From Convolutriloba macropyga (lineage: Eukaryota): a stretch of DNA of 59,882 bases. Under the pieces are notes generated by a model. It had not been told where the DNA came from. It worked only from the letters and a program-made list of their open reading frames with translations, and searched no databases. Position 1 is the stretch's first letter. Each line of letters opens with the position of its first letter. Below are positions 3,408-44,424 of this stretch, one piece after another. The stretch lies in assembly GCF_964194025.1 (NCBI RefSeq), contig NC_134482.1, positions 32,364,001-32,423,882 on the forward strand. Reading direction: 5' to 3'. A program made the translations under genes and the position numbers.

Positions 3408-3674
3408 ATCACGGCGTTGCCTATCCTTTCTTCTTTGTCGTATCATGTCTTTTCTTCCAAACATTTCAAGTTACAAGTTTCCATTATTGAGTTTCTTTGT
3501 TTGGGTTTCCTTACATGACATCAAAAGTTACAACTCATTTCCGTTTTACATGACTTTATTTTCATCTATAGCAATCGTTAGCAATCGTTACAAAAATGTC
3601 GCTTTACACAAACCAATTATCAAATATGGCAAGTTACATGGATTCAACGAAGAAGTTAATACTGGGCTTTAACA
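3408..3674 (-). repeat. 3' LTR of Pao element 1 (truncated at its 3' end)
   Basis: Direct repeat of 7218-7481; TGT start on the minus strand at 3674, directly after GGCCCCGAGGA. Confidence 0.8.
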
Positions 3675-3704
3675 TCCTCGGGGCCATAAAACCTAACCCT
3701 AACC

Positions 3705-18194: not shown

Positions 18195-19610
18195 TCTAGA
18201 TTTCACTTGCACAGGCCCTTTATCAGAGGGCTCAAAGGCTACTTGAAAGTTCTATTATGAAACACTTTAGCCGATATGTATAGTAGTATTAGTAGCAGTA
18301 GATAGGCTTTAGGACGAGACCAGGGGTGAAATAAACCCTTCAGTTTTCAGCTGGCACAAATTTCTTGGCAGCTTTACAGGAGCCACAGAGACAGAGAACT
18401 CGCCAAGAGCAGGGTTCCATCACATTGTAGCTCCTATCGAAGAATTTGTGATATATCTTTGTCAGTCTTGATTTCGTTGAATAATTTTCAGGTATGTGCT
18501 TGTTTAGGATGTTCATAAGTCGCGCAGTCCATGTCCAAAAAATTGTATCGGTCTTCTTCAGCCTGTTAAAAGGAACTTCGAAGTTTTCGTTTTGCCGCGT
18601 TTCTAATGATCTGGGTTTAGGTTTGTCGTTCGAGTCTAGAGCATATTTGCCTTGACATATTGCGTTGAAAAATAGAATATCGTGTAGTTCGAGATACAAC
18701 GATACAGGCAGCATGTTGAGTTTTAGTAGTCGCTGTTTGTAGTCAGCATCTTTTCCGCATATCCAAGCAGTGGCTTTGCGTTGCACTCCTTCAAGCGACT
18801 TCAGGTCAGTTTTTGATGCGTACTAGACCTGGGAAGCGTAGGTCAGAACAGGTACTATGTAATTAACGTACGCATTCAGTTTTGTGGCGGGATTGGCTTT
18901 GTGTGAGCAGCCTCTTTTCGAGAACCAGAAGGATCGCCAGGCCTTGGTTGCTCTTCGAGAACAATTATCACTCCAGGAGAGGCTTCTAGATATGATTACT
19001 CCAAGGTCCTTTTGTTGCGACACCACTTCGAGTGAATCGCCGGATTCGCATGAGGCGCTTCCTTTCACACAAAAAATTTTGCTTTTCTCGACTTTTAAGG
19101 GACATATGGTTCTCTTCACTCCAGGTTTGAATATTTTCTGTAACAATCCGATTTGCGTCGGTTTTGCTCTCCATGATGATTTTGAAGTCGTCAGCATAGC
19201 CATACGATGAATAATTGTAAACGGCTCTGGGAAGGTCGTTGACGAAGGCAAGGAAGAGGAGAGGCCCTAGGATGGACCCTTCGGGAACACCACCGGTCAC
19301 ATTTCTAAAACTTGACCTGGCATTGTTTACCTTGACACATTGGTTACGCTCTCAATGCAGCTGCTTAGAAGATTGAGCAGTTTTCCACCACTGCTGAAGT
19401 CTTTTAGCTTTTCGTGGGCAACTTTGTCGAAAGCTTTTTTGAAGTCCACGTAGACGGCATATATGTGTTCACTATTTGCTGCGTAGTAGAGTTCATTCAC
19501 TTCTTTTAGGTACATAAGGAGCTGCAGAACTGCCGAGCGTTTGTGGCGCAAACCCAATTGTCTTTTATGAAGCTGTATTTCAATGATTGGATACAAGTGC
19601 ATATAATGAA
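18195..19610 (-). mobile_element. 5'-truncated CR1-group non-LTR retrotransposon (RT and C-terminus), few disablements
   Basis: QLGLRHKRS; VYVDFKKAFDKVAH; GVPEGSILGPLLFLAFVNDL; YADDFK; KDLGVIISRSLSW; QRKATAWI; C-terminal CSWRVLCLCGSC; stop at 18340, then a short 3' UTR. Confidence 0.92.
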
Positions 19611-19805
19611 ATACTGAAATAACGCTCAATTCACATCAAGCCGAAAGCAAGAAGTTACCCTCGCAGATACAGCTGACTGCTTTTAACCTTATTTGGAGAT
19701 CAACTTAACAGTCCGTCAGTCATCTTTCGCACTATTTTGTTCACCGAAAAATATATTCAGTGAGAAAACTTCCCGTAAGAAAAAATCAAATTAAAGAGGA
19801 ACAAT

Positions 19806-23815: not shown

Positions 23816-24470
23816 CTCTCATTCAGATCTTCGCAACCAGACTCAAAAGGACCGACGATAACTTCTGGACACGAAACGGAAGACTGCACAACATTCTGAG
23901 TAAACATATCGACTCAACAACGAAATAAAACAGAAAAGCACGAATAACAGCAAATTTGGAAATTCTTCGAAAAGTTCAACGAAGCCAATCTATGTACCTG
24001 GAGGATACTCTGCCAATGCACGAACTGTAACCAACATTCCAAACTTACTCACTAATGACATAAAGGGTGAAAACCCATGGTATATCCCTAAAGAGTTCGC
24101 TACTACTTCTATTCTCATATGTCACTCCGACATAAGTGACTTGCTATACAACGTTGAAAATTACCGTCAGTATCTTGCCTGGACTGTTTTTAGTGTTTGA
24201 GAAGCAACTATATTTATTATTTTCCATAGTAAAAATGTTGTTGTAGAAGACACTTTATTGTGTAGCGCTGTAATTGTTGAAGTACGTATAAATCACAATA
24301 AAATTACGTTAAAGTTGTTGCAAAATTCCACAGTGAGGTTTTAAAAGATTAAACTAGTCAAAACTCACGCCACAAAAACATGCAAAACTAATCACGCTTG
24401 ATCTATGTAGTGCTTTAATAACAATTTTTTGAACACACTTGCTAGTTTTAAAATCTCTAGAGTTGATTTG

Positions 24471-24611
24471 CAGGAACTCGAATGAGCAGAATCCTTGCAC
24501 ATGGACAGTCATTTGTATCTGTGAAAAGTGTCGTGCATATCCTAGAACCTAACAGCGGGAATAACATCACAGTGGCATATCCACGAAGTCATAATAATAA
24601 TAATAATAATA
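24471..24611 (+). mobile_element. 3'-terminal stub of a third LINE family with (AAT)n tail, inserted in A copy 1
   Basis: Encodes QNPCTWTVICICEKCRAYPRT*, then a short UTR and an (AAT) tail; flanked by ATTTG duplication; absent at the equivalent site of A copy 2 (about 29970). Confidence 0.8.
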
Positions 24612-27270
24612 ATTTGGTAGTTAGTGAATTCCATTATTTTGACGTAGCATGGAAAAAAAGAGCTGCCAAGAAAAGAAGCTGATCTGTGGTCATCGAAAAT
24701 TATTTTTTTGAGTACGTTCGTTGATGCAGTATTTAGCACTTGATAAAATCACTGTCGTATTGAATGAATTTTTTTCTGCTAAGATAGTTTCTTAGATAAA
24801 AAACAGAAAGTTGACCAATTCTCTGTTCAATCGCCATCCCCTGTTTGGGATCTTTGTACAGCTATTGATACTGATGCAACAATGATAGAGTATGTTAATG
24901 GTTGTCTAGTTCAGCTGCTTTGCTAGAGAAGTCATCATAGGTTTTCTAATAAGCTGAATAACTAGAGCGTTTATTTATTCAGCACATCTCAGACCATTTC
25001 GTTTGCTGAAACAAACGACCTCTGTCTTTGAAGAAATCAAAGATATTTGATGATCTCTGAAGTAGTGTGCAAAATTATGTATGTTGATTCCAGAGAATTT
25101 TTTTGCTATCTTTTTGCATCCTTGTTAGAAGCAAAAACTAGACAACCATTAACATACTCTATCAATGCTGCATCAGTATCAATAGCTGTACAAAGATTGC
25201 TCACTTATAAACTTAACAAGAGCGGCCCAAAATAGTTCCTTGGGGTACATTATCCTGTTGGGTCTAATTTTACACTTTGAAATCTGTTAGAAAGAAGTTT
25301 ATAAGGTTTTGTGCATCGATGTCAAAGCCAAATTTTTAAATTTGTCTATTAGGATATCATTTGATATGAAATCAAACGCTTTTAAGAGATCCAAAAGTGC
25401 AGTTTGGACAATATTAATTGAGTCAAAACTTTTACGAACTGATTCTATGAAAAATAGCAAAGCATCAAATTTGGAAACATTTTTTTGAAAACCGATCTGA
25501 AGCCAAATTATAAGGTGAAATGTTTGTCCGTGATTCGTTATTTGTTGATGTAGGTATTGCTCAAAAATTTTTGAAATTGCATTTGTGATTGATATTGGTC
25601 GTTAGTTGTTTGCATCCATTGGGTCAATTTTTTGTAGATATCACTGATTTCCGCTTTTTTAGTGCAGTTTGGAAAATATTTGTTCTGATGCTCTCGTTAA
25701 AAAAAGAAAGTAAGATGTGGTACAATGAGTGTTCGATAATCTTTTATAGCCAAGGGCTTTTAAAGTGCAGTTTGGAAAATATTTTGTCGAATGCTTTAGT
25801 TAAAAAAAGTAAGTAAGATGTGGTACACTGAGTGTTTGACAATCTTTAATAGCCTAGGCAGGAACCATAATAGGACCTAGTGGCTTGTTGGAACTCAAAT
25901 CCCTGACAGTATTGTGATTTTTTTTGTAACAAACTGAAAATTGAACGGTTTGATATGTTTGCTTAGGTTACTTTGGTGGGTGCATCGTTTTACATTCTTG
26001 TCCCTAAAAAATTACCAATGTTAGAAAAAGTTTGATTTAGAAAACTCGCAATCTCAAATTCGTTAGTTTGTGAGTCTTTAAATAAATTTTGCAACGCAGT
26101 TACAGCACTGAGTTTATTTTGTTTCAATCTAATGGAATTAATGGAATTCCAGCGTTTTTTTCAGTGTCCAGAGGTTCAAACAATGCTTTAGATGTTCTTT
26201 CTTTTTTAACAATTTTTAGGTTTGATAGACATTGTCGCTTTTAAAATAGAGATCCCAATTGGTCGACATTTTGTTTTCTGTTAAGTGATAAATGCATTTT
26301 TTTTCTTCGTAATTCTGTTTTACATTCTTAGTGAAATCATTCAGTTTTTAACAGTTTCCTGTGTTTGCAATTTCAAATAAATTTTTTAACATCTGGAGCG
26401 TGAGTTTCCAGTGCATTGCTTTGATGAATGGAGTGCCATGGTAAAATGAAAGGGTTTTAACGAAAATATTTGCTTTGAACTGTTTTTTTGTCAAAAAGTA
26501 TATACTTTTTGTTTTCATCTTTATCAATTTGATATCAGTTACAACAAGAGATGCTAAAAGACCTGATTTGAATGGCGTCTCAAAAGTAAATTGCTTGTTT
26601 TTTCTATAGTTTCGGTCAAAAAGCAATCAATATGTGACTCTGAATTTAGTGCAAATCGTTTGGATTCATGTACCTTTACAATTTTTAGGCCAAAAGATGT
26701 TACGAAGCCTCCAAATTGTTTTTCTCACTTGCGTTTAAACAATTGAGTTTAAAGTCACCCGGTACATGTAAAGTGTTGCTTTGTCCAAAAACGTAGCATT
26801 ATTTTTATGACTGTTCGCCTAAAATTTTTTCTTGATATTGCTTTGAGGGATTGCATTACGTTGCTTTACGTTGATGAGCATTTTTTCGAATTTCTTTTTA
26901 AAAATCTTATTTTACATTCAACCCAAACTGACTCAAACACATTTTCGTCAAACGTCATTAAATCAGGTCTTTCTTTTGGTGCTGATATCTTTGAGACGAA
27001 TAGAGTGACACCTCCATCTTTTCTTTGTCTTTTTGTAAGCGGTCATTTCGGAATAATGCATGAGTGTCGTTTAAAACGTTCCAAAGTTAGATCACATATT
27101 TTCAGTTAACCAAGCTTCATTTAGTCCAATAATTCTGTTATTCTTTAAATACTGAAGGTGATATTTAAATGAGATTTTTTCTTAACAACACTTTGCGCGT
27201 CCAAGTGGAAAATTTTAATGTTTTCAGAACTTTTTTTAGTGACTGCTAAAAAAGTTTCGTAAAAAAATGT

Positions 27271-27306
27271 TGGTCCTGGATTTGACTCCACGACACCACA
27301 TAGCAA
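27271..27306 (-). other. 2A-like (StopGo) motif remnant LLCG[V]VESNPGP
   Basis: One substitution (GAC>GTC) away from D(V/I)ExNPGP; the other copies keep the D. Confidence 0.8.
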
Positions 27307-27437
27307 AAAAATAATCGCAAAAAACATTGCCTGAGTCAGTTTGGGTTGATTACAGATGACCCGTGACACAACATCCACAAATAATCATTTTTTATGCGTT
27401 GCAATTATGGCAATATACAAGAGCATCAAGCGTATTA

Positions 27438-28100
27438 CTAAGTAAAAGACAACTTATCCCAAAAATTAGTTATTAGACATAGACTGTCGTTGCGAAGAGA
27501 CTTTATCATAACGATAAAGCCGTTTTCAGAGGGATGGAGGCAATCTGTGTGAACATAATCATAATTATTTTGAAACTCGGCTTTCAAATCAATCATGTTA
27601 GTTTTTGTGTTGAATAGGTCCTTTACTTTTGAAACTAAACCGCAGAGTTGCGTCTTTTTTTGGACTAAACTTAATCTCTTTTCTAAAGGCAATAATCTTT
27701 TTTCTAAGCGGTAATAGAGCGCAGATTTCTTTCGTCTCTGGTTTGAATCTGTGATCATATGTATATACAAGCTTTATGTCAAAATCAGCCGATAGACAAT
27801 CACTGATTCCCATTAGAGATGTTACTTGTTTCACTTTTTTTGCTCTGTTTGCAGTTCTCTCAAGCAGTCCTGAGATCCTATGACCACCGAAGCCTCCTCT
27901 TCTTAACAAACTTAGTCCAATTTGCCTTCCGTCAATGCTGTTGGTGATTGAATCTCCGATTGTCATTGCCTCTGTAGTGTCGTCCATTGGGATGGAAAAA
28001 TGTCGTCTATAGGCATCCATTCTGCTGGCATTTTTGGTTGAATCTCTTTTATTTGATGAATCTTGAATTTTTCTGCGTTTGTTGTCAGTTGTCCACTGGA
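27438..28100 (-). pseudogene. LINE ORF1 SGNH/GDSL esterase (frameshifted)
   Basis: Block I IGDS, block II FGG, block III GI(N/S)D and block V DxLH in the correct order. Confidence 0.85.
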
Positions 28101-28429
28101 TGTTGTGTTTGCTCCGCTTTATGTTGCAGTTCTGGTCTGAATTGGATCTCTGATGAAGGGTTTTCTGAAATTATCTGAAATTCCGTCATCTGAAAATTTG
28201 AAAAACTCCCACTTTTCAAAAATTCACTAGTGGTTGTTGATTCTTTGAAAATTTCTGCCAAATCCGTAGCAATTCTTCGTAGATAATAAACATTTTCTTT
28301 GTAAGATTGCAAGATAATGTATTGATTTTGATTAAACAGAGTGGTGAAAGCGTCCGCACTTAGTAACATGCTCAAAATTTCAAAGGTTGAAGTAACAATA
28401 AAATGATATCGAACGGTCTCTTGACAGTT

Positions 28430-29920
28430 GTTGATTGTTGTAAGATTTTTTCTCTTGACCTCTAGACAGTTGTTGTAGAAGTTTTTCAGCTCACAAGCAG
28501 AGGCGAGTTATTTATCTGGCAAACTTGTTTTGAAGTCTCTTCCTTTACTTCTGCAAATGTTGCACTCACAAGTATATTGCCATGTGCACACATTTTCAAT
28601 CGAGAAGATTATTTTTACAAATATCCGCAATCGTTCTCTCAAAATAATTCTTGTTTTCAGTCCATCTTGATTCAGAAAGTTGATTTTGGAATTGATTATG
28701 TTTGCTTTTCTTACTGGTTGTGAAATCAACTCATTTTCCGCTTTCTCAATTCGTATTTTTTTGAAGATTAAACACGTCTGGGCTTCTTCCGTGGTTTGGA
28801 ATTGGTGCAGGTTTTTCTATAAGTTCTCTATCTAGTGGATTAGCTTTGAAAGGAATAAGAGGTCAGTCATCTGAAAGTACAAAGTACATTGGTGGAGGCA
28901 ATACGTTCAGATTCTTCAAGGCAATTGTGTACTAGCTTTCATATTGTCCAGTTATCCAACTAAGTTCTCTTTTTTTAAACTTCTCAAGCTTGAACTCATT
29001 TTCCGCTTTCTCAGTTCGTTTTTTAAGACTAAGCACATCTGGGCTTCTTCCTTGGTTTGGAATCGGTGCAGGTTTTTCTATGAGTTCTCTATCTAGTGCG
29101 TTAGCGCTGAAAGGAATATTAGGTCAATCATCTGAATTTACATTGGTAGAGGCAATGCATTCAGAATCATCCTGCCATTTATGTACTGAATTTCATATTG
29201 TCGAGTTATCAAATTGAATTTCCCTTTTATGAAACTTCTCAGGGTTTCTCAGGTCTGCTCTAGTTACTTGAACACAACTGAGTCCAAAAAGCAGGACCTT
29301 TATATCAGGTAATTTGTACGGGCTTAACTTGACGTGCTTGTCTATTACGTAAACAACATTACGCTTTTAGAGTATATGACCTTGTTGGCTTTCTCGGCTC
29401 TCCAATTTATGTGCGCTCCCCAATTCAAGTTGCTGCTGATAGTGATTCTCAAGTCCTTCATTTACGTTTGGGTCTGAAGCAGTTCTTTTCCAAGGAATAC
29501 ACAGGATTTTTACCCCTGAATGTAAGATTAGAACAATTGTCAATTGCCAACTCCATTGTGTTTTGCGAAACCAACTTTTCTATCGCTGTTATGTCTGCGT
29601 GTACTTCAATGTCTGATCTGCCATTTGCTAGTCTTTTGTGGTCGTCTACGAAAATGCAAGGCAGCTGAATTTGAGAATGTCTGTCACTTCCAAGATGAGT
29701 ATGCAGAAGAGCAGTGGTCCCAGGGGGGAGTCTTGTGATGCCTCACAGGTTACATCCAAAGTTTGAGAACGAATACCATCAGATGTCACATACTGCTTCC
29801 TGTCTTATAGTTACTCAACCAGTAGTCACAAAAAACTCCCTCAGACTACAACAGCAACAACTTGTTTTCAAATTTCCACAGTGGGGGAACTTTGTCAAAG
29901 GCTTTGCGGAAATGTGTATA
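28430..29920 (-). mobile_element. LINE family B copy 1 (3' half of RT to 3' end), with an internal ~265-bp duplication
   Basis: KAFDKV, LGPLLFCI remnants and terminal CTWQYTCECNIC; 28727-28990 repeated at 28992-29240; colinear with 34040-35300. Confidence 0.85.
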
Positions 29921-32900
29921 TAAATAACAATTTTTTGAACGACCTTGCCGGTTTTAAAATCACCTGAGTTGATATGGTAGTTATTGGTTTCCATTTGTTT
30001 GACGTAGCATGGAAAAAAAGGAAATGTTTCGAAAAGAAACTGATCTGTGGTCATTGAAAATGATTTTTTGAGTAATTTCGTTGACGGAGTATTTAGCATT
30101 TGGCAAAATCACTGTCGTTTTGAATGAGTATTTTTCTCTGCTAAGATATTTTCTGAGATAAAAATTAGAAAGTTGATCAATTCGCTGTTCAATCCCCGTC
30201 AGCTTTTTTTATTTTTAAGCGCTGTGACAATTTGCAAAGAGCTGAAAAACACATTTTTAAGACCCCAGTTCAGCTGCTTTGCTAGACAAGTCATCATAGG
30301 TTTTCTAATGTGCTGAATAAATAGAGCGGAATATATGAGATGTGACAAAACAATTGATGGAAGTGAACATTCTAGACTTGATGAAGGGAGCTGAGTTCCA
30401 ATTCATTCTATGGTGTTTAACCCCTGAGGCATCTTCATTAACTTTTATTTAATATGATTCATGAAACTGAAACTACTATCAATTGTTAGTCCTAAATATT
30501 TACATTCATTAGACTTCTTGAGTACTTTGTTTTCTATTATCGTTGTCTTGGGTTTTTATCTATGACCATTTCGTTTGCTGAAACAAACGAACTCTGATTT
30601 TGAAGAATTCAAAGTTCTTTGATGATCTCTGAAGTAGTTTGCTAAATAATGTATGTTTGATTCCAAGGAATTTTTTTGCTATCTTTTCATCCTCGTTAGA
30701 AGAAAAAACTAGGCAATCATCAACGTACTGTATCATTGTTTTGTCAGTGTCAATAGATGTACAAAGACAGCTCACTTATAAATTCAACAAGAGCGGTCCC
30801 AAAATTGTTCCTTGGTTTAGACCTCTGACAATTTTTATCCTGTTGGAGAAAACTAAGTTTAATTTTACACTTTGAAATCTGTTAGAAAGAAAGCTTTTCA
30901 AAATGTTTTCTGCATCGATGTCAAAGCCATTTTTTAGTTTATCTAATAGGATATCATGAGATATGAAATCAAATGCTTTCATGAGACCCAAATGTGCAGT
31001 TTGGACAAAATTATTTGAGTCAACAATCTCACAAACTGATTCTATGAAAAATAACAAAGCATCGACTGTGGAGTTATTTTTTCGAAAACCAAACTGAAGC
31101 CAATTCATAAGGTGAAATTTTTGTACGTGATTTGTTATTTGATGATGTAGGAATCGCTCAAAAATTTTTGAATATGCATTTGTGATTGATATTGGGCGTT
31201 AGTTGTTTGCATTTATTGGGTCCACTTTTTTGCAGAGGTGGCTGATTTCCGTTTTTTAATGCATTCTGGAAAATATTTTGTCGAATGCTTTTGGAAAAAA
31301 ATTAAGTAAGATGTGGTACAATTAATGTTTGACAATCTTTTATAGCCCAGGCAGGAATCAAAATAGGACCTAGTGGCTTGTTGGAACTCAATTTCCTGAC
31401 AAAATTGTAAACTATTTTTTCTGTAAAAAACTGAAAACAGAACGGTTTGATAAGTTTGCTTAGGGTACTTTTGTGGGTGCATCGTTTTACATTCTTGTCC
31501 CTAAAAATTACCAAGGTTAGAAAAAGTTTGATTTAGAAAACTCGCAATCTCAAATTCGTTAGTTTGTGAGTCTTTAAATAAATTTTGCAACGCAGTTACA
31601 GCACTGAGTTTATTTTGTTTCAATCTAATGGAATTAATGGAATTCCAGCGTTTTTTTCAGTGTCCAGAGATTCAAACGATGGTTTCGATGTTCTGTCTCT
31701 TTTAACAATTATTAGGTTTGATAGAGATTGTCGCTTTTGTTATAAAAATCCCAATTGGTAGACGTCTTGTTTTCTGTTAGGCCTAAATGCAGTTTCTTTT
31801 CTTCTTATTTCTGTTCTACATTCCTAGTCAAACCATTCAGTTTTTAACAGGTTCCCATGTTAGCGATTTCAAATTATTTTTTTTTCAAAAGAATGCACAG
31901 TGAGTTTTGAGTGCATTGCTAACAATCGATATCATAATATTAGACATTACGGGAGCAACATTGCTTTGATGAATGGAGTGCCACGGGGAAATTGAAAGGG
32001 CTTTAACAAAAATATTTGCATTGTACTGTTTTTTTTGTCGAAACAGTATATACTTTTTGAATTGAACTTTATCGATTTGATATCAGGTTCAAAAAGAGAT
32101 GCTAAAAAATCTGATTTGAATGGCGTCTCAAAAAAAAATTGCTGGTTTTTTTTTCTATTATTTTGATCAAAAAGCAACCAATATATGACTCTGAATATAG
32201 TTCTAGTCTTTTGGTTTCATATACGCCAACAATTTATAGACCAAAATGTTACGATGTTCTCCAAATTGTTTTTCTCACTTGCGTTTAAACAATTGAGGTT
32301 AAAGTTACCCGGCACAAGTAAAGTGTTGAACTCTCCAAAAGTTTAGTCTAGATTGTATGACTAATCGCCGAAAAATTTCTCTTGATTCTGCTTTGAGGGA
32401 TTGTACGTTACGTTGATATGCATTTTTTCAATTTTTTTTTGAAAAAATTTTTTTACATTAAACCCAAACAGACTCAAACACATTTTCGTCAAACGTCATT
32501 AAGTCAGGTCTTTATTTTAATGATATTATCTTTGGGACAAATACAGTCACAACTTCATCTTTCTTTTTATTTTTTGAAAGCGCTCATTTCGGAATAGTGC
32601 ATGAGTACCGTTCAAAACGTTCCGAGGTTAGATCAATTATTTTCAGTTAACCAAGTTTCAATTAGTCCAATAATTGTGTTATCCTTTGAATACTGAAGGT
32701 CATGTTTCAATGAGATTTTTTTAAACAACACTTTGCGCGTTCAAGTGCAAAATTTTAGAACATTTTTTAGTAACTGCTAAAAAGTATTCGTAAAAACTGT
32801 TGGTTCTGGATTTTACTGCACGTCACCACATAGCAAAAAAATAATCGCAAAAGCTCTGCCTGAGTGAACTTGGGTTGATTACAGATGACCCGTGACACTA

Positions 32901-34040
32901 CAATCAAAAATAATTTTATTTTCTGCGTTGCAGTTATGGCAAAATGCAAGAGCATCAAGCATGTTGCTATGAAAAGGACGACAATAACCAAAACGTTAGT
33001 TATTAGAGATATAAATACAAAAATTGAAATATATCATTTTGGCTAGGTCTTGGTGTTTCTCGGTTCTGTTTCGTTCAAATTGAGGTAGCACAGTCGTTTA
33101 TTTCAATATTTAAGTTTATCAGATTGTTGAGAAGAGATTTAACCAACGTTAACCGACTTTACTTGAACCATAAAGCTGTTTTCAGAGGGAAGGAGGCCAT
33201 CTGTGTGAATATGATCAAAAGCATGTTAGTTTTTGTGTGGTATAGATTCTTCACTTTTGAAACTAAACTGCAGTGTTGCATGTTGACTTTTTGGCACTAA
33301 ATTTACTTTCTTTTCTAAAAGCACTAAGCGGCAACAGAGTGCAGATTGATATTGTTTCTGATATGAATTTTAGAGCACATGTATATACAAGTTTTTTGTA
33401 TGCCGTAATTGATTCGTTTATGTCGAAATCAGCCAATAGGCAACCATTGATTCCCATTAGAGTTGTTACTTGTTTCACACTGTTTGCTCCATTGTTTGCA
33501 GATCTCACCAGCAGTCCTGAGATCCTTTGACCCCCGAAGCATCTTCTTAACTTACTTGGTCCAAATTGTGCTCCGTCAATGCAGTTGGTGCTTGAATCTC
33601 CGATTACTATTGCCTCTGTAGTGCTGTCTTTTGGGATGGATAAATGTCGTCTATAGGCATCAATTGTGCTGGAAGTTTGCGTTGAATCAGTTTTATTTGT
33701 TGAATTTTTCAATTGATATGCGTCTGTTGTCAGTTGCCCGCTGGCTGTTGTTTTTGCTCCGCTTGATGTTGCAGTTCTGGTCTGAATTGTATCTCTAATG
33801 AAGGTTTTCCAAAATACCTGAAATTACGTCATCTTAAAAAAATGAAAACATATCACTTTTCAAAAATTCACTAGGGGTTGTTGATTTTTTCAAATTTTCA
33901 GCTAAATGCGTAGCAGTTCTTCGTATATAATAAATATCTTCTTTTTAAGATTGCAAGATAATGTATTGATTTTGATTAAACAGAGTGGTGAAAGCGTCCG
34001 CACTTAGTAACATGCTCAAAATTTCAAAGGTTAAATTAAC
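29921..34040 (-). mobile_element. LINE family A copy 2 (most complete): esterase ORF1, leader/2A, APE-RT
   Basis: IVIGDSSTN...LMGING; LLCGDVQ*NPEP (32801-32836); LQFGFRKNNSTVDAL; LMKAFDFISHDILLDKL; GLNQGTILGPLLLNL; IQYVDDCL. Confidence 0.9.
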
Positions 34041-36990
34041 AACAAAATGATAATGACTCGTCTCTTGACAGTTTTTGTTTGTTGTAGGAGATTTTCTGTT
34101 GAGCTCCAGACAATTGTTGTAGGAGTGTTTCAGCTCGCTAGCAGAGGCGAGTTATTTATCTGGCACACTTGTTTTAAAGTCTCTTCCGCTTACTTTAGCA
34201 CATTTTACAATCACAAGCGTATTGCCATGTGCAGACGTTTTCAATCGAGAAGTTTATATTTACAAACAACCACAATCGTTCTCTCAAAAACGTTTTTCCT
34301 TTCAGTTCATCAGGATTCAGAAAATTGATTTCGGAAATGATTCTGTTTGCTACTCTTGCTGTTTGTGAAATGAACTCATTTCCCGCTTCCTCAGTTCGTA
34401 TTTTTCCAAGATTAAACACGTCTGGGTTTCTTCCTTGGTTTGGAATCGGTGCAGGTTTTTCTGTGAGTTCTCTCTCTAGTGGATTAGCTTTGAAAGGAAT
34501 AATAGGTCATTCGTCTGAATATACATTGGTAGAGGCAATACGTTCAGATTCTTCAAGGCATTTGTGTACTGGGTTTCATGTTTTCCAGTTATCCAACTAA
34601 GTTCTCTTTTTTGAAACCTCTCAAGCTTTCTCAGGTCAGCTCTAGTTACATGAACACAACTGAGTCCAGAAAGCACGACCAGCAAAACAGGCGATTTGTA
34701 CGGGCTTAACACGATGTGCATGTTTACTGCGTGAACAACATTTCTCTTTAAAAGTATTTGACCTTGTTGGCTTTCTTGGGTCTCAAAATTATATGTGCTG
34801 CCCAATTCAGGTTGTTGCTGAATGTGATTCTCAAGTCCCTCATTTACAATTGCGTCTAGAGCAGTTCTCCTCCGAAGAAGAAGGAGACGTTTTCCCCCTG
34901 AATATAAGACTAGCACATTTGTCAATTGCCAACTCCATTGTGTTTTGCGAAACCAACTTGTCTATCGCTGTTATGTCTGAGTGTACTTCAATGCCTGATC
35001 TGCCAATTGTTAGTCTTTTGCGGTCGTCTGCGAAAATGTAGGGCTGCTGAGTCTGAGAACTTCGGTTAGATCCATGATGATTATGCGGAATAGCAGTGGT
35101 CCCAGGAGGGAGCCTTGTGATACCTCACTGGTTACATCCATAGGTTCAGAACTAATACCATCAGATGTCACATACTGCTTCCTGTTTTATAGGTACTCAA
35201 CCAGTAATCACAACAAACACGCTCAGACTCCAACAGCAGCAAATACCTGGTTTCAAAATTCAATAATGTGGAACTTTGTCAAAGGCTTTAGTGAAATGTG
35301 TGTAGAAAGGTAACTATTCATCAGTGGAGTTCCTAGCTAGAGCTTTGTAGATCCTCGGCAGAGATTACAGTTTTTTCGACTGACCTCCGACTGACAAAAC
35401 CATGTTGATGCTCTGTGGGGTACAAGATAAAGTGCTTGTAAGATGCTTGGTATAGGCATTTTTCAAGTACTTTGAGGTCTGTGTTAAGATCAGAAAGTGA
35501 TCTGCAGATTTTACTAGTCGTTTGTCTCTCTTTTTGTGTATTGGAATTATTGACGCCATCTTGCAAATCTTAAGATTTTTGTGGAGGATTTGATGATATT
35601 CGTATACTTGTTCAATCATTTGATCATTTGTGAAACAGTTTTTTGTAAGACATTATGTGGATAGCCATTTGGGCCATTTGACTTCGATTTGCTGAGATAC
35701 AATAGAATTTCTGCTATCTCGTTTCTGAAACCTTCCAAATATGTGCATGTGCTCGATTTGTTGAGATCTTGTACATCCACGTTTGTCTGGGGTGAGTACG
35801 CCGAGTAAAAACACTTGACTAGTAAGCCAATTTTCTCTTGAGAAATCGTGGTTGAGGACCCAACTTTTATCATAACTGCGGGCAGATTATGCGATGTCTT
35901 CAACTTCCCATGATCTTGAATGTCAATTTGGTGTCTTGAGTGTTTTGAGCTTACATTAGGTGTGATGTAATGGCTGTAATTCACAACGAAAGAGACTGGC
36001 AATGCGGGATTTTTGATTAGCAGCTCCAAGTGGTCATACAGTTCTTTGCAAAATTGGAATAGCAAATTGCTTCAAACTTCGTTTTTTTTATGGGGACGAT
36101 TAATTTGTGAGTAATATGCACTTCCCTGACTACGAAAGTTGAGAGTGTAAGGCTTGACTTGCTGGTGTGAACATTCTAATAGCCGTTGGATTGTATCGTG
36201 ATCAGAGCAAGTGTAGATTTTGCTGAACTGCTCAACAAATGTGACTTGAAGAGCGCAGTTTCGATAGAGAGCTACATCCAACAGATTGTTGACTCTTGCC
36301 TCATAATCAACCGTTTGTTGGAACAGTTTGCCTTCCCATTGGTCAAGAATTTCTTGTTCTGCGGCATCCTTCGTGGTGTAAATTACATCAGTTTGCGTTT
36401 GGAATGATTATGTCACCGCAGACAATTATCGGGGAGTTTTTGGGAAGCACTGAGAGTATTTCGACAAAATCTTTCAGTTCGACGCCAATTTTTGGCGACA
36501 TCAAATTCAATTCAAGGCAGATGTAAATGCAAAGCCAACACGATGGCTTTACCACAAACAGAAATCTTTTTACGCATCTACTTAAAAGTTTGTAGGAAGT
36601 GTAAGAGGCAAATGATTTTGAATCCAGATTTGCTGTTTATTTTGACGCAGAAAAAGCGTTTTATTAGGTGCCTCTATTTGTACAAAAATGAAGGCTTTTG
36701 GCTATCACAAAATGTCGTTGATGTTGCTGAGCTCCTAGAGCAAACCTCATGTCAAAGATAGCATCTTCTCCGGCTTTTTTCCAGTGAAGGTTTCGGGAAT
36801 TTTATTTTATGGTTTTTTGAGTAAAATTCCAGAATTTATTACACTCCGTAGCTTCTACATATATTTTATAATCCTGCCAACAGAAAAAAATTATACATAC
36901 CCCTGTTTAGACAAAATAGGATCTAATCTGTTTGCCCCTCTTCAGCTTAGCGGGTTTGGTATCCTTTACGTCTAAGCCTCCCACAATGTT
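34040..36990 (-). mobile_element. LINE family B copy 2: ORF1 tail, APE, RT, Cys-rich C-terminus
   Basis: PIIVCGD, NLLDVAL, CSDHDTI (APE); KSNGPNG; IIPIHKK; QHGFVSRRS; KAFDKV; QGSLLGPLLF; FADD; CTWQYACDCKMC. Confidence 0.9.
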
Positions 36991-37009
36991 GTGCTCATTG
37001 AATTGGAAG

Positions 37010-38050
37010 AAAACTGTTGGTCTTTAATTTGACTCCACGTCACAAATAGCAAAATAATTATCGCAATAAACGTTGCTTGAGTCAATTTGGGTTAATTCCA
37101 GGTGACCCGTGACACTACATTCACAAATAATTTTATTTTTTGCAATGCAGTTATGGCAATACTCAATAGCATCAAGCATCTTGCTAAGAAAAGGACGACC
37201 TTATCCAAAATGTTAGTTATTAGAAATATAATTAAAAAAATTGAAATACATAATTTTGGCTAGGTCTCGGTGTTTTTGGAGTCGTTTATTTCAACATTTA
37301 AATTTATCAGAATGTTGTGAAGAGACTTCACAATAAACTTAACGCCGGATTCAGAAGGATGGAGGCCATCTGTGTGAATAAAATCATGGTGACTTTGAAA
37401 CTCGGCATTCAAATCAATCATGTTAAATTTTTTGCAGGGTAGGTCCTTCACTTTTGAAACTAAACTGCAGAGTTGCTTGTTAAATTTTTTGGCACTAACC
37501 TTACTCTCTCTTCTAAAGGCACCAAGCGGTATTAGAGTGCAGATTGATATTTTCGCTTATATGAATTTGTAAACAAATGTATATATAAGTTTTTCGTATG
37601 GCGTAGTTGATTCAAAAATGTCAAATTGAGCCAATAGACACTCATTGATTCCCATTAGAATTGTTGCAAGTTTCAGTTTTTTTTGTTCTGGTGTTTGCAG
37701 TTCTCTCAAGTAGTCCTGAGATCTTTTGACCACCGAAGCCTCTTCTCAACATACTTGGTCCATTTTGCCTTCCGTCAATTTTGTTGGTGATTTAATCTCC
37801 GATTACCATTGCCTCTGTAGTGCCGTCCTTTGGGATGACTAAATATCCATAGGCATCAATTGTGCTTGAATTTTGCGTTGAATCAAGTTTATTTGATGAA
37901 TCATTGAATTGATCTGCGTTTGTTGTCAGTTGTCCGCTGGTTGTTGTATTTGCTCCGTTTGATGTTGCAATTTTGGTCTGAATTGGATCTCTGATGAAGG
38001 GTTTTCTGAAGTTACCCGAAATAACGTCATTTAAAAAAATTGAAAAACTA
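37010..38050 (-). mobile_element. Family A 5' module (esterase ORF1 + leader/2A) fused to the start of B copy 2
   Basis: AMVIGD; HTDGLHPSESG; DVESN*RP at 37018-37052. Confidence 0.85.
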
Positions 38051-40165
38051 TCGTCTTTTGCGGTCATCTGCGAAAATGTAGGGCTGCTGAGTTTGAGAAT
38101 GCCTGTTAGATCCAGGATGAATATGCAGAATAGCAGTGGTCCCAGGAGGGAGCATTGTGATTCCTAAATGGTTACATCCAGAGTTTAAGAACTAATATCA
38201 TCAGATTTCACATACTGCTTCCTGTTTTATAGGTACTCAACCACTCGTCACAAGAAACACCCTCAGACTGCAACAGCAGGAGCTAACTTTTTTCAAAGTT
38301 CAATAATGTGGAACTTTGTCAAAGGCTTTGCTAAAGCGTGGGTAGAATGCTAATCTTTCATCAGTGGATTTCCTAGCTAGAGCTTCGTAAATACTCGACA
38401 GTGATTACAGTTTTTCGTTATGACTGACTTTCGACTGACAAAACCATGTTTATGCTTTGTGGGGTACATGATAGAGTGCTTGTAAGATGCTCGAAATGTG
38501 CATTTTTCAAGTACTTTGAGGTCTACTTTCAGAAGAGAAAGTGGTCTTTAGATTTTAACCAGACGTTTGTCTCTCTCTTTTTGTATCGGAATTATTGACG
38601 CCATCTTGCAAATCTTATGATTTTTGTGGAAGTTTTTGATGATCTTCGATAACTTGTTCAATTATTTGATCGCTTGTGAAGCATTTTTTTGTAAGACAAT
38701 ATGTGGAGAGCCATTTGGGCCATTTGACTTCGATTTGCTGAGATACAATAGAATTTCTGCTATCTCGTTTCTGAAACCTTCCAAATATGTGGATGTGCTC
38801 GATTTGTTGAGATCTTGTACATCCACGTTTGTCTGGGGTGAGTACGCCGAGTAAAAACACTTGACTAGTAAGCCAAATTTCTCTTGGGAAGTCGTGGTTG
38901 AGGACCCAACTTTTATCATAACTGAGGGCAGATTATGCGATGTCTTTAAATTTTCCAAGTTCTTGAATATCATTTTTGTGTCTCGAGATGACATTGCTTT
39001 CTCCTGGTGGTAAATTTGACGAGACTCAGCTCATTCTGTATTAATTTTCTTCAAATTGGTGTCCAGAGTTTTACGATAGCTGATTGGTTTTCTAACCAGG
39101 AGTTGTTTCTGTGTTTTGAGCCTGCATTAGGTATGATAAGCTGGCTGTAATCCACAACGAAAGAGACTGGCAATGCTGGCTTCTTCTCGGAACATGATTT
39201 TCGACTAGCAGCTTCAAGTAGTCATACAGTTCTTTGCAAAATTGTAATAGCAAATTGCTTCGAAGTACGTTTTTTTATGGGACGATTAATTTGTGAGTAA
39301 AATGCACTTCCATAACTACGATAGTTGAGGATATAAGTCTTGACTTGCTGGTGTGAACATTCCAATAGCCTTCGAATTGTATCGTGATCAGAGCAAGTGT
39401 AGATTTTGCTGAACTGCTCAACAAATGAGACTCGAAGAGCGCAGTTTCGATAGAGAGCTTCATCCAACAGATTGTTGACTCTTGCCTCATAATCAACCGT
39501 TTGTTGGAACAGTTTGCCTTCCCATTGGTCAAGAATTTCTTGTTCTGCGGCATCCTTCGTGGTGTAAATTACATCAGTTTGCGTTTAGAAAGATTATGTC
39601 ACCGCAGATAGTAATCGGGGAGTTTTTGGTAAGCACTGAGACTAATTCGACAAAATCTTTCAGTTAGACGCCATCTTTTTGCGATACCAAATTCAATTCG
39701 AGGCAGATGTAAAAGCGAAGCCAACACGATGGATTTACGACAAACAGAAATCTTTTTACGCATCTACTAAAGCATTTGGAGGAAGTGTAGGAGGCAAACG
39801 TTTTTGATTCCGGATTTGCTTTTTTTTTTCAGGGAAAGCGTTTTATTAGGTGACTCAATTTGTACAAATTTAAAAATTTTTAGCTATCAGAAAATGTCGT
39901 TGATGTTGCAGAGCTCCTAGACCAAAGCTCACGTCGAAGGTAGCATCTTCTCCGGCTTTTTTCAAGTGAGAGTTTTGGGAAATTTACTTTATCGTTTTTT
40001 GGTTATATGACAAATTTCCAGAATTTATTACACTCCGTAGCTTCTACATACCATGTGATGATCCTGCCGTCAGAAAAAAACTGTACTTACCCTTGTTTAG
40101 ACCAATTAGGATCTATTCTGTTTGCCCCTCCTCGGCTTAGCGGGTTTTGTATCCTTTACGTCTAA
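38050..40165 (-). mobile_element. LINE family B copy 3 (APE to RT FADD, 3'-truncated)
   Basis: Colinear with 35015-36990; breaks just after FADDRKR and joins A ORF1. Confidence 0.88.
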
Positions 40166-40169
40166 GCGT

Positions 40170-40400
40170 CCCACAATGTTGTGCTTACTGAATTGGTTAA
40201 AAACTGTTGGTTTTTGATTTGACTCCACGTCACCACATAGCAAAAAAATTATCGCAATAAACTTTGTTTGAGTCAATTTGGGTTGATTCCAGATGACCCG
40301 TTACTCTACATTCACAAAGAATTTCATTTTTTGCGTTGCAGTTATGGCAATGCACAAGAGCATCAAGCATGTTGCTAAGAAAATGACGACTTTGTCCAAA
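40170..40400 (-). mobile_element. Family A leader/2A module fused to B copy 3
   Basis: LLCGDVESNQKP at 40208-40243; same 2A-to-B junction as at about 37010. Confidence 0.8.
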
Positions 40401-40414
40401 AGGTTTGTTGTAAA

Positions 40415-41268
40415 TGATGTTGCTGAGCTCCTAGAGCAAACCTCATGTCAAAGATAGCATCTTCTCCGGCTTTTTTCCAGTGAAGGTTTCGGGAATTTTA
40501 TTTTATGGTTTTTTGAGTAAAATTCCAGAATTTATTACACTCCGTAGCTTCTACATATATTTTATAATCCTGCCAACAGAAAAAAATTATACATACCCCT
40601 GTTTAGACAAAATAGGATCTAATCTGTTTGCCCCTCTTCAGCTTAGCGGGTTTGGTATCCTTTACGTCTAAGCCTCCCACAATGTTGTGCTCATTGAATT
40701 GGAAGAAAACTGTTGGTCTTTAATTTGACTCCACGTCACAAATAGCAAAATAATTATCGCAATAAACGTTGCTTGAGTCAATTTGGGTTAATTCCAGGTG
40801 ACCCGTGACACTACATTCACAAATAATTTTATTTTTTGCAATGCAGTTATGGCAATACTCAATAGCATCAAGCATCTTGCTAAGAAAAGGACGACCTTAT
40901 CCAAAATGTTAGTTATTAGAAATATAATTAAAAAAATTGAAATACATAATTTTGGCTAGGTCTCGGTGTTTTTGGAGTCGTTTATTTCAACATTTAAATT
41001 TATCAGAATGTTGTGAAGAGACTTCACAATAAACTTAACGCCGGATTCAGAAGGATGGAGGCCATCTGTGTGAATAAAATCATGGTGACTTTGAAACTCG
41101 GCATTCAAATCAATCATGTTAAATTTTTTGCAGGGTAGGTCCTTCACTTTTGAAACTAAACTGCAGAGTTGCTTGTTAAATTTTTTGGCACTAACCTTAC
41201 TCTCTCTTCTAAAGGCACCAAGCGGTATTAGAGTGCAGATTGATATTTTCGCTTATATGAATTTGTAA
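40415..41268. repeat. Essentially identical ~855-bp copy of 36719-37572
   Basis: Offset 3696; ORF-track translations 36784/40480 and 37260/40956 are identical. Confidence 0.95.
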
Positions 41269-41755
41269 GCAAATGTATATATAAGCTTTTTGTATGGCGC
41301 AAATGATTCAAATATGTCAAAATCAGCCGATAGACACTCATTGATTCTCATTAGAATTGTTACATGGTTCAGTTTCTTTGTTCGGATGTTTGCGGTTCTC
41401 TCAAATAGTCCTGAGATCCTATAACCCCCGAAAGCTCTTCTCAAGATACTTGGTCCAATTTGCCTTCCGTCAATGCGGTTGGTGTTTGAATCTCCAATTA
41501 CCATTGCCTCTGTAGTGCTGTCCTTTGCCATGAAAAAAATGTCGTCTATAGGCATCAAGTGTGCTGGAATTTTGCGTTGAATCTATTTTATTTGATGAAT
41601 CTTTGAATTGATCTGCGTTTGTTGTCGGTTGTCCGCTGGCTGTTGTATTTGCTCCGTTTGATGTTGCACTTCTGGTCTGCGTTGGATATCTGATGAAGGT
41701 TTTTCTGAAGTTACCTGAAATAACGTCATCTGAAAAATTGAAAAATATCGTCTCT
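40700..41755 (-). mobile_element. Family A 5' module (esterase ORF1 + leader/2A), copy 5
   Basis: AMVIGDSNTNRIDG...FGGYRISG...LMRINECL; HTDGLHPS; 2A remnant at 40714-40748. Confidence 0.85.
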
Positions 41756-41769
41756 TGCTGTTTGTGATG

Positions 41770-44326
41770 TGAACCCATGTCCCGTTTTCTCAGTTCGTAT
41801 TTTTTAAAGACTAAACACATCTGGGGTTCTTCCTTGGTTTGGAATCGGTAGAGGTTTTTCCATGAGTTCTCTATCTAGTGGTTTAGCGTTGAAAGGAAAA
41901 ATTGTTCAGTCATCTGAATGTACTTTGGCAGAGCCAATACATTCAGAATATTCAGGCCATTTATGTTGTGTATTTTATATCGTCCAGTTATCCAATTGAG
42001 TTCTATTTTTTGAAACTTCTCAAGCGTTTTCAGGCCTGCTCTAGTTACCTGAACACAACTGAATCCAAAAAGCAGGACAGGCATAACATAAGAATTGTAG
42101 GGATTTAAATTGATGTGCATGTTTACTGCGTAAAGAACATCTCGTATTTAGAGTATATGAACTTGTTGGCTTCCTTGGGTCTCAAAATTATGAGCGCTGC
42201 CAAATTCAGGTTTTTGTTGATGGTGATTCTCAAGTCCGTCATTTACGTTTGTGCCTGAAGCAATTCTCTTCCCTGGAAGAAGGAGACGTTTTTCACCTTG
42301 AAAATAAGATTAGCACATTGGCCAATCGCCAAGTCCATTGTGTTTGGTAAAATCCACTTGTCTATTGCTGTTGCTTCTGCGTGCACTTTAATATCTGATC
42401 TTCCAATTTCTAGTCTTTCGAGGTCGTCTGCAAATATGTAGGGCTGCTGAGTTTGGGAGCAACTGTTAGATCAAGGTTGATTTTTCAGAATAGCAGTGGT
42501 CCGAGAAGGGAGACCTGTGGTACCTCACAGTTACATCCAGAGTTTAAGAAAAATGCCATCAGATGTTACATACTGCTTCCTTGTCAACCAAGTGTCACTA
42601 GAAACACCATCAGTCTCCAATAGCAGCAACTTTGTTCAAAATTCCATAATTTGGAAATTTGTCAAAGGCTTTGCTGAAATGTGTGTAGAAGGCTAACAAT
42701 TCATTCGTGTAGTTAAAGCTAAAGCTTCGTAGGTCCTCAGCAGAGATGACAGTTTTTTCGCTATGGCTGACCTTCGCCTGATAAAACCGTGGTGACGCTT
42801 CCTGAATAACATGATAAAGTGCTTTTAGAGTGCTTGGTGTTTGCATTCTTCAAGTATTTTGAGGTCTATGTTCAGAGGGGAAGGTGGTCTGTAGTTTCTA
42901 ACCTGTCGTTTGTGTCTCTTTTTGTATATCGGAGTTATTGACGCTATCTTGCATAGCTTATGAAATTTCTGGAGACTTTTGATGATCTTCATTAACTTGT
43001 TTAATTATTTAATCATGTGTAAAGCAAGTTTTCGTAAGACAATATGGGGATAGCTATTTGGGCCTCTTGACTTCGATTTACTGAGCCACAATAGAATTTC
43101 TGCTATCTCATCTCTGAAAACATCCAAAATTGTGTGTGCTGGATTTGCACTGTTGAAATTATTTATGTCCAAAATCGTCTTGGGTGAGTAAACCGAGCGA
43201 AAGAACTCAATTAGTAAGCCAGTTTTCTCCTGAGAAATTTTGGTTGGGTACCCATCTTTTATCATAACTGCGGGCAGGTCAGGCGACGTCTTCAAACTTT
43301 TCAGGTGCTTGAAGATCATTTTTGTGTCTCGAACTGACAGTATTTTCTCCTGGAGATTAAATCGATCACACCCATCTCATTCAGTAACGATTTTCTCCAA
43401 ATTGGTTTCCAAAATTTTACAATAGCTAATTGGTTTACTCACCAGGAGTTGCTTCTGTGTTTTGAGCTTCCATTGATGGTTTGATGTGCTAGGTCAATCT
43501 ACGTCGGCTTCCAAGAGACTGGCGATGCCGGTTGTTCTAAGAATATGAATTTCGATAAGCTGCTCCAAGTATTCATAAAGCTCTATGCAAAATAGGAATC
43601 TGAAAAATGCTTGAAACTGCGTTTTTTTTATTGGTACGATTTATATCGGAGAATTATGCATTTCCATAACTACAATAGTTGAGGATGTAAGGCTTGACTT
43701 GCTGGTGTGAGCATTCTAATAGCCTTTGGATTGTATCGTGATCAGAGCAAGTGTAGATTTTGCTGAACTGCTCAACAAATGAAACTCGAAGAGCGCAGTT
43801 TCGATAGAGAGCTACATCCAACAGATTGTTGACTCTTGCTTCATTTCAACCGCTTGTTGGAACAGTTTGCCTTCCAATTAGCCAAGAATTTCTTGTTCGG
43901 CGGCATCCTTCGTGGTAATTTTACATCAGTTTGCGTTTAGAAAGATTATGTCACCGCATATAATAATCGAGGAGTTTTTGGAAAGCACTGAGACTGTTTC
44001 GACAAAATCATTTGCGACACCAAACTAAATTCGATGCAAATGTGAATTCGACGCCAACGCAATAGCTTTGTCACAAACCGAAATCTTTTTATGCATCTAC
44101 TCAAGTCTTTGTTAGCATCTTCTCCGGCTTCTTTCAAGTGAGAGATTTGGGAACTATACTCTATCGTTTTTTGACGGAATTCTAGAATTTGTGACACTCC
44201 GTAGCTTCTACATATAATTTGATGATCCCGCAATCAGAAACGAAGTTTATACTTAGCCTTGATTAGACCAATTAGAATCTATTCTGTATTCCCTCCTCAG
44301 CTTAGTGGGCTTTTATCTTTTACGTC
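41770..44326 (-). mobile_element. LINE family B copy 4 (ORF1 tail, APE, RT; 3' end missing)
   Basis: CSDHDTI; KSRGPNSYP; YTHFSKAFDKF; FADD; LNILNVLALPKYIQ. Confidence 0.88.
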
Positions 44327-44424
44327 TCCAGGCACACGTGATTTTTTTACATAGTAATGTGCTAAATAACAACATATAATTTGTAAATGGGGCAAAAAAC
44401 ACTGGGGGCCAAAACAGAAGAGAT

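What the first reader, a model, noticed from the sequence alone, without database searches (positions are those of the whole stretch)
27145..41755. LINE with SGNH-esterase ORF1 plus a hydrophobic leader ending in a viral-type 2A/StopGo peptide ahead of APE-RT
Seen: five copies of the motif on the minus strand. They read LLCGVVESNPGP (27271), LLCGDVQ*NPEP (32801), ..DVESN*RP (37018 and its duplicate 40714) and LLCGDVESNQKP (40208). Each is broken, but together they reconstruct a canonical LLCGDVESNPG|P. The motif follows a ~60-aa leader with two hydrophobic stretches (VVLFLARCLMLLSIAITA...FIAIIFLL) that sits just after an ORF1 with all four SGNH blocks (GDS/G/GIND/DGLH), and it precedes the APE domain. 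Established: D(V/I)ExNPGP causes ribosomal skipping, 2A-like motifs occur at the N-terminus of ORF2 in some CR1/L2-group elements, and esterase ORF1s are known from CR1/L2 elements such as ZfL2-1. Inference: combining a lipid-binding esterase with a membrane-targeting leader released by 2A could give two ORF2 products (free and membrane-anchored) and a membrane-associated RNP route. Each part is known separately; the combination in this lineage may be undescribed.
Basis: partly seen in the sequence, partly recalled or inferred. Interest (0 to 1): 0.75.

Follow-up and report, generated by a model that had tools for sequence, protein, structure and literature searches.

The report
Esterase LINEs with signal-plus-skip leader
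These are broken copies of an extinct jumping gene whose first gene is an esterase and whose copying enzyme begins with a greasy, signal-like leader ending in a ribosome-skip motif, a layout shared by many younger relatives in this genome that likely parks the element's RNA at the ER membrane while the enzyme is made.

Summary
The five motifs are at the stated places. Across 35 aligned genomic copies the majority reads LLCGDVESNPG|P in frame with APE-RT, behind an ORF1 with all four SGNH blocks. Corrections: family A is extinct (about 13% decay, no intact copy seen). Only 2 of the 5 window copies lead into APE; the rest are local duplications joined to another LINE. The second hydrophobic stretch (9 aa) is the 2A helix, not a membrane span. 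The genome holds 591 exact 2A motifs (control 0). Of 93 loci examined, 58 have an SGNH ORF1 upstream, against the published view that 2A goes with loss of ORF1. In 14 sister families scored, a signal-peptide-like segment ends 59-71 residues before the skip site, and that part shows modest purifying selection. Best reading: the 2A pause exposes the segment to SRP and docks the ribosome and RNA at the ER; skipping then frees APE-RT. Skipping, targeting and any link to the esterase are untested. This scan noted signal-like leaders before 2A on other DNA. New variant of a known kind.

The parts
24245..28441 (-). Family A LINE, near-full decayed copy 1 (5' region, ORF1, leader-2A, APE, RT, 3' UTR with AATAAA and a TCT-repeat remnant)
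   Evidence: maps to family majority positions 389-4797 at 81-86% over the long segments; 3' end
27454..28369 (-). ORF1 of copy 1, broken: N-terminal likely coiled coil, linker, SGNH esterase (about 27534-27972)
   Evidence: sister ORF1 profile hits the family majority at 5.6e-16
27397..27455 (-). h1: hydrophobic segment of the ORF2 leader (20 uncharged residues in the family majority; frameshifted in this copy)
27271..27330 (-). 2A helix and motif, copy 1 (D changed to V)
24622..27270 (-). APE and RT remnants of copy 1
   Evidence: tblastn of intact sister ORF2, E 1.5e-7 for APE and 2.6e-21 for RT; Pfam RVT_1 8e-5
29925..34085 (-). Family A LINE, near-full decayed copy 2 (leader-2A at 33011-32801; lacks the last 200 nt)
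   Evidence: 84% to family majority 389-4578; RVT_1 7.9e-12
37011..38052 (-). Partial family A copy (ORF1 part, leader, broken 2A) joined to LINE B sequence
40192..40404 (-). Leader and broken 2A only, from a short tandem duplication
40707..41739 (-). Partial family A copy, 95% identical to 37011-38052
41750..44327 (-). LINE B, a second decayed LINE (RT, cysteine-rich C-terminus); further pieces at 38053-40195, 34086-37005 and 28442-29932

Best explanation
The stretch is a locally duplicated pair of dead LINEs; family A encoded an SGNH-esterase ORF1 and an APE-RT whose leader ends in an in-frame canonical 2A motif, and the leader likely worked as a pause-and-dock signal that would bring the translating element RNA to the ER membrane before the predicted skip frees the enzyme. 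Steps. (1) Shown: layout ORF1(esterase) - leader - 2A - APE - RT - (TCT)n tail, in family A by majority and in intact sister elements such as L081, L082 and L157. (2) Shown by hydropathy only: a signal-like segment h1 ending 59-71 residues (14 sister families) or 40 residues (family A) before the skip glycine, just beyond the 30-40 residues that the ribosome tunnel hides (tunnel length recalled). (3) Inferred: the 2A pause leaves h1 exposed for SRP, as the XBP1u arrest peptide does for HR2 at 52 residues. (4) Inferred: after skipping, APE-RT is finished on the cytosolic face of the ER and takes its own RNA there, where a phospholipid-binding ORF1p could assemble the particle. (5) Inferred: unskipped chains stay on or in the ER and are mostly lost, which also keeps ORF2p low.
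For: In-frame motif. Family A groups with the sister families by RT, SH-aLRT 99 in a quick tree of 70 of 155 RTs. SGNH ORF1 upstream of 58 of 93 motif loci and 20 of 32 clusters, 10 of them not used to build the profile. A sister ORF1 folds as SGNH (pLDDT about 90 over the domain) and matches GDSL hydrolases, PAF-AH and the ZfL2-1 esterase 4c1b. h1 of 10-16 residues (30 in one family), preceded by K/R in 12 of 14, at near-constant spacing in 14 of 14 scored families; codon shuffles reach both peaks in under 1% of runs for 14 of 15 sister leaders. The h1-plus-linker part has pN/pS 0.60, Fisher p 0.005, against 0.79 and 0.91 in the other frames, over 11 pairs. Signal-like N-termini in 6 of 14 2A-bearing relatives against 2 of 26 without 2A, p 0.014. 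Precedents: XBP1u (PMC6624018), Ty1 RNA on SRP (PMC3945221), cytosolic release downstream of a signal-bearing 2A protein in yeast (PMC2978324), liposome binding by the ZfL2-1 esterase (PMC3905857).
Against: No SignalP or TM predictor could be run; hydropathy scales were recalled. Leaders are T-rich (31-44% T), which favours F, L and I; nucleotide shuffles give two peaks in up to 7% of runs. Copies were picked for open frames, and the neutral pN/pS baseline of this simple method is probably near 0.8. The 30 codons next to the 2A showed no significant constraint (0.77, p 0.27). Family A itself deviates: shorter spacing, no polar linker, codon-shuffle p 0.03, uncertain start. Four clusters with long open leaders lack h1 by eye. 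Only 20 of 66 outside leaders have h1, and 1 of 80 outside loci has the esterase. Only 8 of 24 similar peptides skipped in cells. ZfL2-1 transposition appears not to need the esterase activity (cited in PMC13343379), and the secretory pathway was dispensable for human L1 (PMC5478143).
Confidence: 0.45

Rival explanations
1. Brake, not address label. The leader and 2A helix mainly cut ORF2p output by stalling, fall-off and ER disposal of leader or fusion; membranes play no part in particle assembly.
For: 16 of 24 LLCGDVE peptides lowered protein levels; 59% of ORF2p-linked 2A peptides did so (PMC13405545, section 14); down-regulation is the published proposal (PMC3894237). A signal upstream can block skipping and pull the fusion into the ER (PMC2978324). 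h1 occurs without an esterase.
Against: The published brake was meant to replace ORF1, yet ORF1 is kept here. The 2A helix alone gives reduction, so a separate conserved h1 at fixed spacing is not needed for it.
Confidence: 0.3
2. Known 2A-LINE with an incidental greasy leader: T-rich DNA drifts to F/L/I codons and only the 2A helix matters.
For: Leader T content 31-44% against 29% in the ORF2 body; other frames also reach hydropathy 2-3. Family A's own leader is atypical. Selection signal is modest.
Against: Constant h1 position with a polar linker in families whose synonymous sites are saturated; enrichment in 2A-bearing over 2A-less relatives; in-frame constraint on the distal leader.
Confidence: 0.13
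3. Membrane-tethered enzyme. The 2A skips poorly and the working ORF2p is the full fusion, anchored by h1 (family A) or by the long pre-2A helix after signal cleavage (sisters), with APE-RT in the cytosol.
For: 12 of 24 similar peptides did not skip; the pre-2A uncharged run is 15-32 residues in 10 of 14 sisters.
Against: The full D-V/I-E-x-N-P-G-P motif is kept across deep families; APE-RT must reach chromosomes; the run is only 7-11 residues in 4 sisters and 9 in family A.
Confidence: 0.12

Closest known systems
2A-bearing APE non-LTR retrotransposons (Odon et al. 2013, PMC3708506; Luke et al. 2013, PMC3894237)
   Same: Canonical motif 40-80 aa from the ORF2 start, directly before APE; CR1-group host element.
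   Different: Those mostly lack ORF1, with three named exceptions of ORF1 type not given in the text read; here an esterase ORF1 is the rule. Odon's main text has no mention of signal, hydrophobic or membrane.
Type IV esterase ORF1p: ZfL2-1, vertebrate CR1 and L2, RTEX (Schneider 2013, PMC3905857, PDB 4c1b; Metcalfe and Casane 2014, PMC4120745)
   Same: Coiled coil, linker and SGNH domain with catalytic S, N, D and H.
   Different: None of the 24 esterase elements in Schneider Table S1 is among the 2A elements named in the Odon text read. Metcalfe found esterase ORF1 in CR1/L2 only in vertebrate groups; this lineage looks Daphne/Crack-like by eye.
Sea-urchin NLR 2A-like signal sequences (Roulston 2016, PMC4981915)
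   Same: 2A combined with ER targeting, giving two fates.
   Different: There the 2A peptide is itself the signal; here a separate hydrophobic segment lies 40-70 residues upstream, in a retrotransposon.
XBP1u HR2 plus arrest peptide (PMC6624018); Ty1 RNA on SRP (PMC3945221)
   Same: A pause or nascent chain brings the mRNA to the ER; XBP1u spacing is 52 residues.
   Different: Analogy of mechanism only; no homology; neither uses StopGo.

Membership tests
CR1-group LINE (L2/Crack/Daphne lineage) | ORF2 with N-terminal APE and RT | tested here: met
CR1-group LINE (L2/Crack/Daphne lineage) | 3' short tandem-repeat tail, no LTR | tested here: met
   AATAAA then (TCT)n in L033, L036, L045 and a remnant in the window
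CR1-group LINE (L2/Crack/Daphne lineage) | RT phylogeny against named clade references (RTclass1) | tested here: inconclusive
   only compared by eye with reference RTs shown; the tree holds no named references
Class A 2A/StopGo peptide | G-D-V/I-E-x-N-P-G-P in frame inside an ORF | tested here: met
   majority of 36 copies
Class A 2A/StopGo peptide | hydrophobic, leucine-rich tract at -19 to -10 | tested here: met
   criterion from PMC13405545 section 13
Class A 2A/StopGo peptide | measured skipping | not testable with these tools
   similar peptides skipped in 8 of 24 cases
Type IV esterase ORF1p | SGNH blocks I, II, III and V | tested here: met
   majority residues in 30 loci; weak Pfam GDSL hits on natural fragments, E 0.003-0.045
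Type IV esterase ORF1p | SGNH fold behind a coiled coil | tested here: met
   on sister L081: helix 17-54 and SGNH domain, Foldseek E about 1e-6; family A linked by profile at 5.6e-16; a family-A-only profile found nothing in PDB
Type IV esterase ORF1p | hydrolysis and phospholipid binding | not testable with these tools
   shown only for ZfL2-1 (PMC3905857)
ER signal peptide or signal anchor | basic n-region, 7-20 residue hydrophobic core, polar c-region near the ORF start | tested here: inconclusive
   pattern present by hydropathy in 14 sister families and as a 20-residue run in family A; no trained predictor; family A start unresolved
Single-ORF 2A-LINEs (2A replacing ORF1) | absence of ORF1 | tested here: not met
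   SGNH ORF1 upstream in 58 of 93 loci

The most novel reading that the evidence does not exclude
A whole LINE clade uses a signal sequence spaced to emerge exactly when its 2A pauses the ribosome, so SRP delivers the element's mRNA to the ER, skipping releases APE-RT on the membrane face, and a lipid-binding esterase ORF1p builds the particle there: a dedicated membrane assembly route that also explains cis preference.
Probability: 0.25. Interest if true: 0.8.

Novelty: new variant of a known kind. Interest (0 to 1): 0.5.

Why it matters
Why LINEs carry 2A, and what the 40-80 residues in front of it do, is open; the published idea is that 2A stands in for a lost ORF1. This genome has many families that keep both, and their leaders share a signal-like segment at fixed distance from the skip site. 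That offers a concrete function for the leader and a link to older hints that LINE particles use membranes. Intact natural sister elements (L081, L082, L157) make it testable without repairing anything.

Tried and rejected
Pfam found no family on the four broken window ORF1 pieces. PDB sequence searches with family A fragments were blank. The word-index protein search found no relative of the sister ORF2. The ESM Atlas gave no answer. Cluster look-up gave no useful names. No RNA holder listed. The single-sequence fold of a sister leader was low confidence, pLDDT 54, and is not used. A -1 frameshift joining ORF1 to ORF2 at the T/A run was rejected: ORF2 lies in the +1 frame and the -1 frame closes at once (read). 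AUGA stop-start coupling at the upstream ATGATG was rejected: its TGA is not in the ORF1 frame. No intact family A copy appeared among 40 DNA and 86 protein matches. Site-specific insertion of LINE B at the 2A was considered; one shared junction and B's rarity elsewhere favour local tandem duplication. The careful tree did not finish; the quick tree is used. Formal clade typing against reference RTs was left open.
Full report
Observation. A 301-nt probe found 40 scored matches across a 1.18-Gb genome at 71-86% identity apart from the self-match. The majority of 30 loci and of 20 near-full copies restores a 4.4-kb LINE, family A: an ORF1 of about 345 aa, an ORF2 in the +1 frame with leader, LLCGDVESNPG|P, APE and RT, and a 3' end with AATAAA and (TCT)n. 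Copies differ from the majority by 13% on average (8-18%, 36 copies, some near-duplicates) and 2 of 35 keep the full motif. No intact copy turned up. The family is extinct.

The window. Two near-full copies (28441-24245 and 34085-29925) start at the same base and follow the same 3' end of a second LINE, B. Three partial copies switch to B-side sequence about 10 nt after the motif through one junction. B has only distant matches elsewhere. The simplest reading is repeated local duplication of one B-A pair, so the five motifs are not five insertions, and only two precede APE.

ORF1. Blocks GDS, G, GIND and DGLH are the majority residues in 30 loci. Natural fragments give weak Pfam GDSL hits. A profile of 13 sister ORF1s scores the family A majority at 5.6e-16. 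A profile of these 13 plus three family A fragments hits a GDSL lipase (4.8e-5) and the ZfL2-1 esterase 4c1b (0.0045). The AlphaFold model of sister L081 has an N-terminal helix 17-54 and a confident SGNH domain that matches GDSL hydrolases and PAF-AH.

Genome context. The exact motif occurs 591 times against 0 for the reversed control. Only the first 100 places were listed (contigs C1-C3); 93 distinct motif loci were fetched and fall into 32 clusters. An SGNH ORF lies upstream in 58 of 93 loci and 20 of 32 clusters; 10 of these clusters had not contributed to the profile. L081, L082 and L157 have open ORF2s of 1035-1101 codons. Family A falls in one RT clade with ten sister RTs and 16 outside relatives (SH-aLRT 99, quick tree, 70 of 155 RTs used). 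By eye the RT resembles Daphne/Crack entries; formal typing was not done.

The leader. Fourteen clusters with long open leaders were scored; four more with long open leaders (three GC-rich elements with a cysteine-rich segment after the motif, and one other) lack h1 by eye, and 14 were too broken. In all 14 scored, a hydrophobic core ends 59-71 residues before the skip glycine, preceded by K/R in 12 and followed by a polar linker and a second hydrophobic tract next to the motif. Codon shuffles reached both peaks in under 1% of runs for 14 of 15 sister leaders; nucleotide shuffles did so in 0.05-7%. Over 11 pairs aligned as DNA, the part upstream of the last 30 codons had pN/pS 0.60 (p 0.005) against 0.79 and 0.91 in the other frames, while the last 30 codons gave 0.77 (not significant). 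Copies were chosen for open frames and the method ignores transition bias, so this is modest support. Family A is a compact variant: one 20-residue uncharged run (hydropathy 2.33) ending 40 residues before the glycine, no polar linker and a 9-residue second tract. Its start is unresolved. An ATGATG 71 codons before the motif is in frame at the commonest spacing (8 of 30 copies; 12 of 30 in that phase), but a T/A run makes or breaks a stop. The alternative ATG lies 27 nt after the ORF1 stop and would trim h1.

Outside this genome. Of 150 best relatives of L081 ORF2, 16 carry a 2A-like motif (2 strict); many are fragments. Signal-like N-termini occur in 6 of 14 with 2A and 2 of 26 without (p 0.014). 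Among 80 metagenome loci, 20 of 66 evaluable leaders have an h1 of hydropathy 2.5 or more. One locus, L270, has an SGNH ORF upstream (Pfam 1e-9), out of 38 with at least 900 nt upstream; others carry NADAR or L1-like ORF1s. So 2A with a retained ORF1 is not rare, the signal-like leader is common but not general, and leader and esterase are not tied.

Mechanism. In XBP1u a pause exposes a hydrophobic segment 52 residues away to SRP and carries the mRNA to the ER (PMC6624018; abstract and passages). The spacing here, 40-71 residues, fits the same logic with 2A as the pause. After a skip the downstream product was cytosolic in yeast, but some signal-bearing upstream proteins block skipping and drag the fusion into the ER (PMC2978324; part 1 of 5). 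Ty1 RNA uses SRP to nucleate assembly sites (PMC3945221; abstract). The ZfL2-1 esterase binds liposomes (PMC3905857; part 2 of 6, passages, supplement file 2 part 1). I put docking at 0.45, a pure expression brake at 0.30, incidental hydrophobicity at 0.13 and a tethered fusion at 0.12. Against docking: of 24 tested LLCGDVE peptides 8 skipped, 4 fell off, 12 did not skip and 16 reduced protein (PMC13405545; sections 13, 14, part of 15, supplement search). ZfL2-1 transposition appears not to depend on the esterase activity (cited in PMC13343379; passages), and the secretory pathway was dispensable for human L1 (PMC5478143; passages).

Comparison with print. 2A before APE is well known (PMC3708506, parts 1-4 of 6 and supplement excerpts; PMC3894237, parts 1-2 of 3; bioRxiv 10.64898/2026.09.24.754024, passages and section 31). 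Those authors tie 2A to loss of ORF1 and name three exceptions without giving their ORF1 type in the text read; figure 2A and Repbase were not visible. Esterase ORF1 in CR1/L2 was reported only for vertebrate groups (PMC4120745; passages). 2A acting as a signal is known in sea-urchin NLRs (PMC4981915; passages). Searches found no paper describing esterase ORF1 plus 2A in one element, or a separate signal segment in the 2A leader of LINEs; the library lacks most subscription papers. Earlier notes of this scan already report signal-like leaders before LINE 2A motifs in other genomes.

Verdict. The identification is secure (about 0.95). The layout is a new variant of a known kind that contradicts a published correlation and gives a testable role for the leader. 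The window's own copies are dead; the value lies in the intact sisters. Interest 0.5.

Noticed in passing
L199-L278 (metagenome 2A-LINE loci): 35 of 66 evaluable leaders contain a conserved [Y/W/F]R-x-x-[I/V]G-x-[F/W/Y/H] peptide near their start, absent from 48 own-genome leaders; a second, unexplained leader type.
   Followed up: partly
L270:2-811 and 1532-4858: Intact SGNH ORF about 1 kb upstream of a 2A-leader ORF2 with a cysteine-rich C-terminus: esterase plus 2A in what looks like another LINE lineage, possibly a three-gene element.
   Followed up: partly
L199, L237, L259; L264: 2A-LINE loci with a NADAR-domain ORF upstream, and one with a UPF0029 domain on a coiled-coil ORF1.
   Followed up: no
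L205:669-1358, L212:717-1373: Hydrophobic ORFs of about 220 aa with no Pfam match, ending 280 nt before the 2A motif.
   Followed up: no
L052, L053, L064, L095, L186: GC-rich elements with 2A followed by a cysteine-rich PHD-like segment and no evident signal-like leader.
   Followed up: no
window 21184-23175, minus: 663-codon open frame with an EIF4E-T Pfam match (3e-8), probably a host gene exon.
   Followed up: no
window 50489-50884 and about 4000-4500, minus: Decayed BEL/Pao retrotransposon fragments (Peptidase_A17 4e-16 for the first).
   Followed up: no
window 18340-19635, minus: A third decayed LINE (RVT_1 3e-10) with a cysteine-rich C-terminus like LINE B.
   Followed up: no
L031, L035, L039, L041, L048: Family A copies elsewhere also often sit in short tandem duplications.
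   Followed up: no
P0045, P0074, P0137: Relatives without a 2A motif that still begin with a signal-like stretch.
   Followed up: no
window 54017-59759: Recent tandem duplications at 96-98% identity.
   Followed up: no
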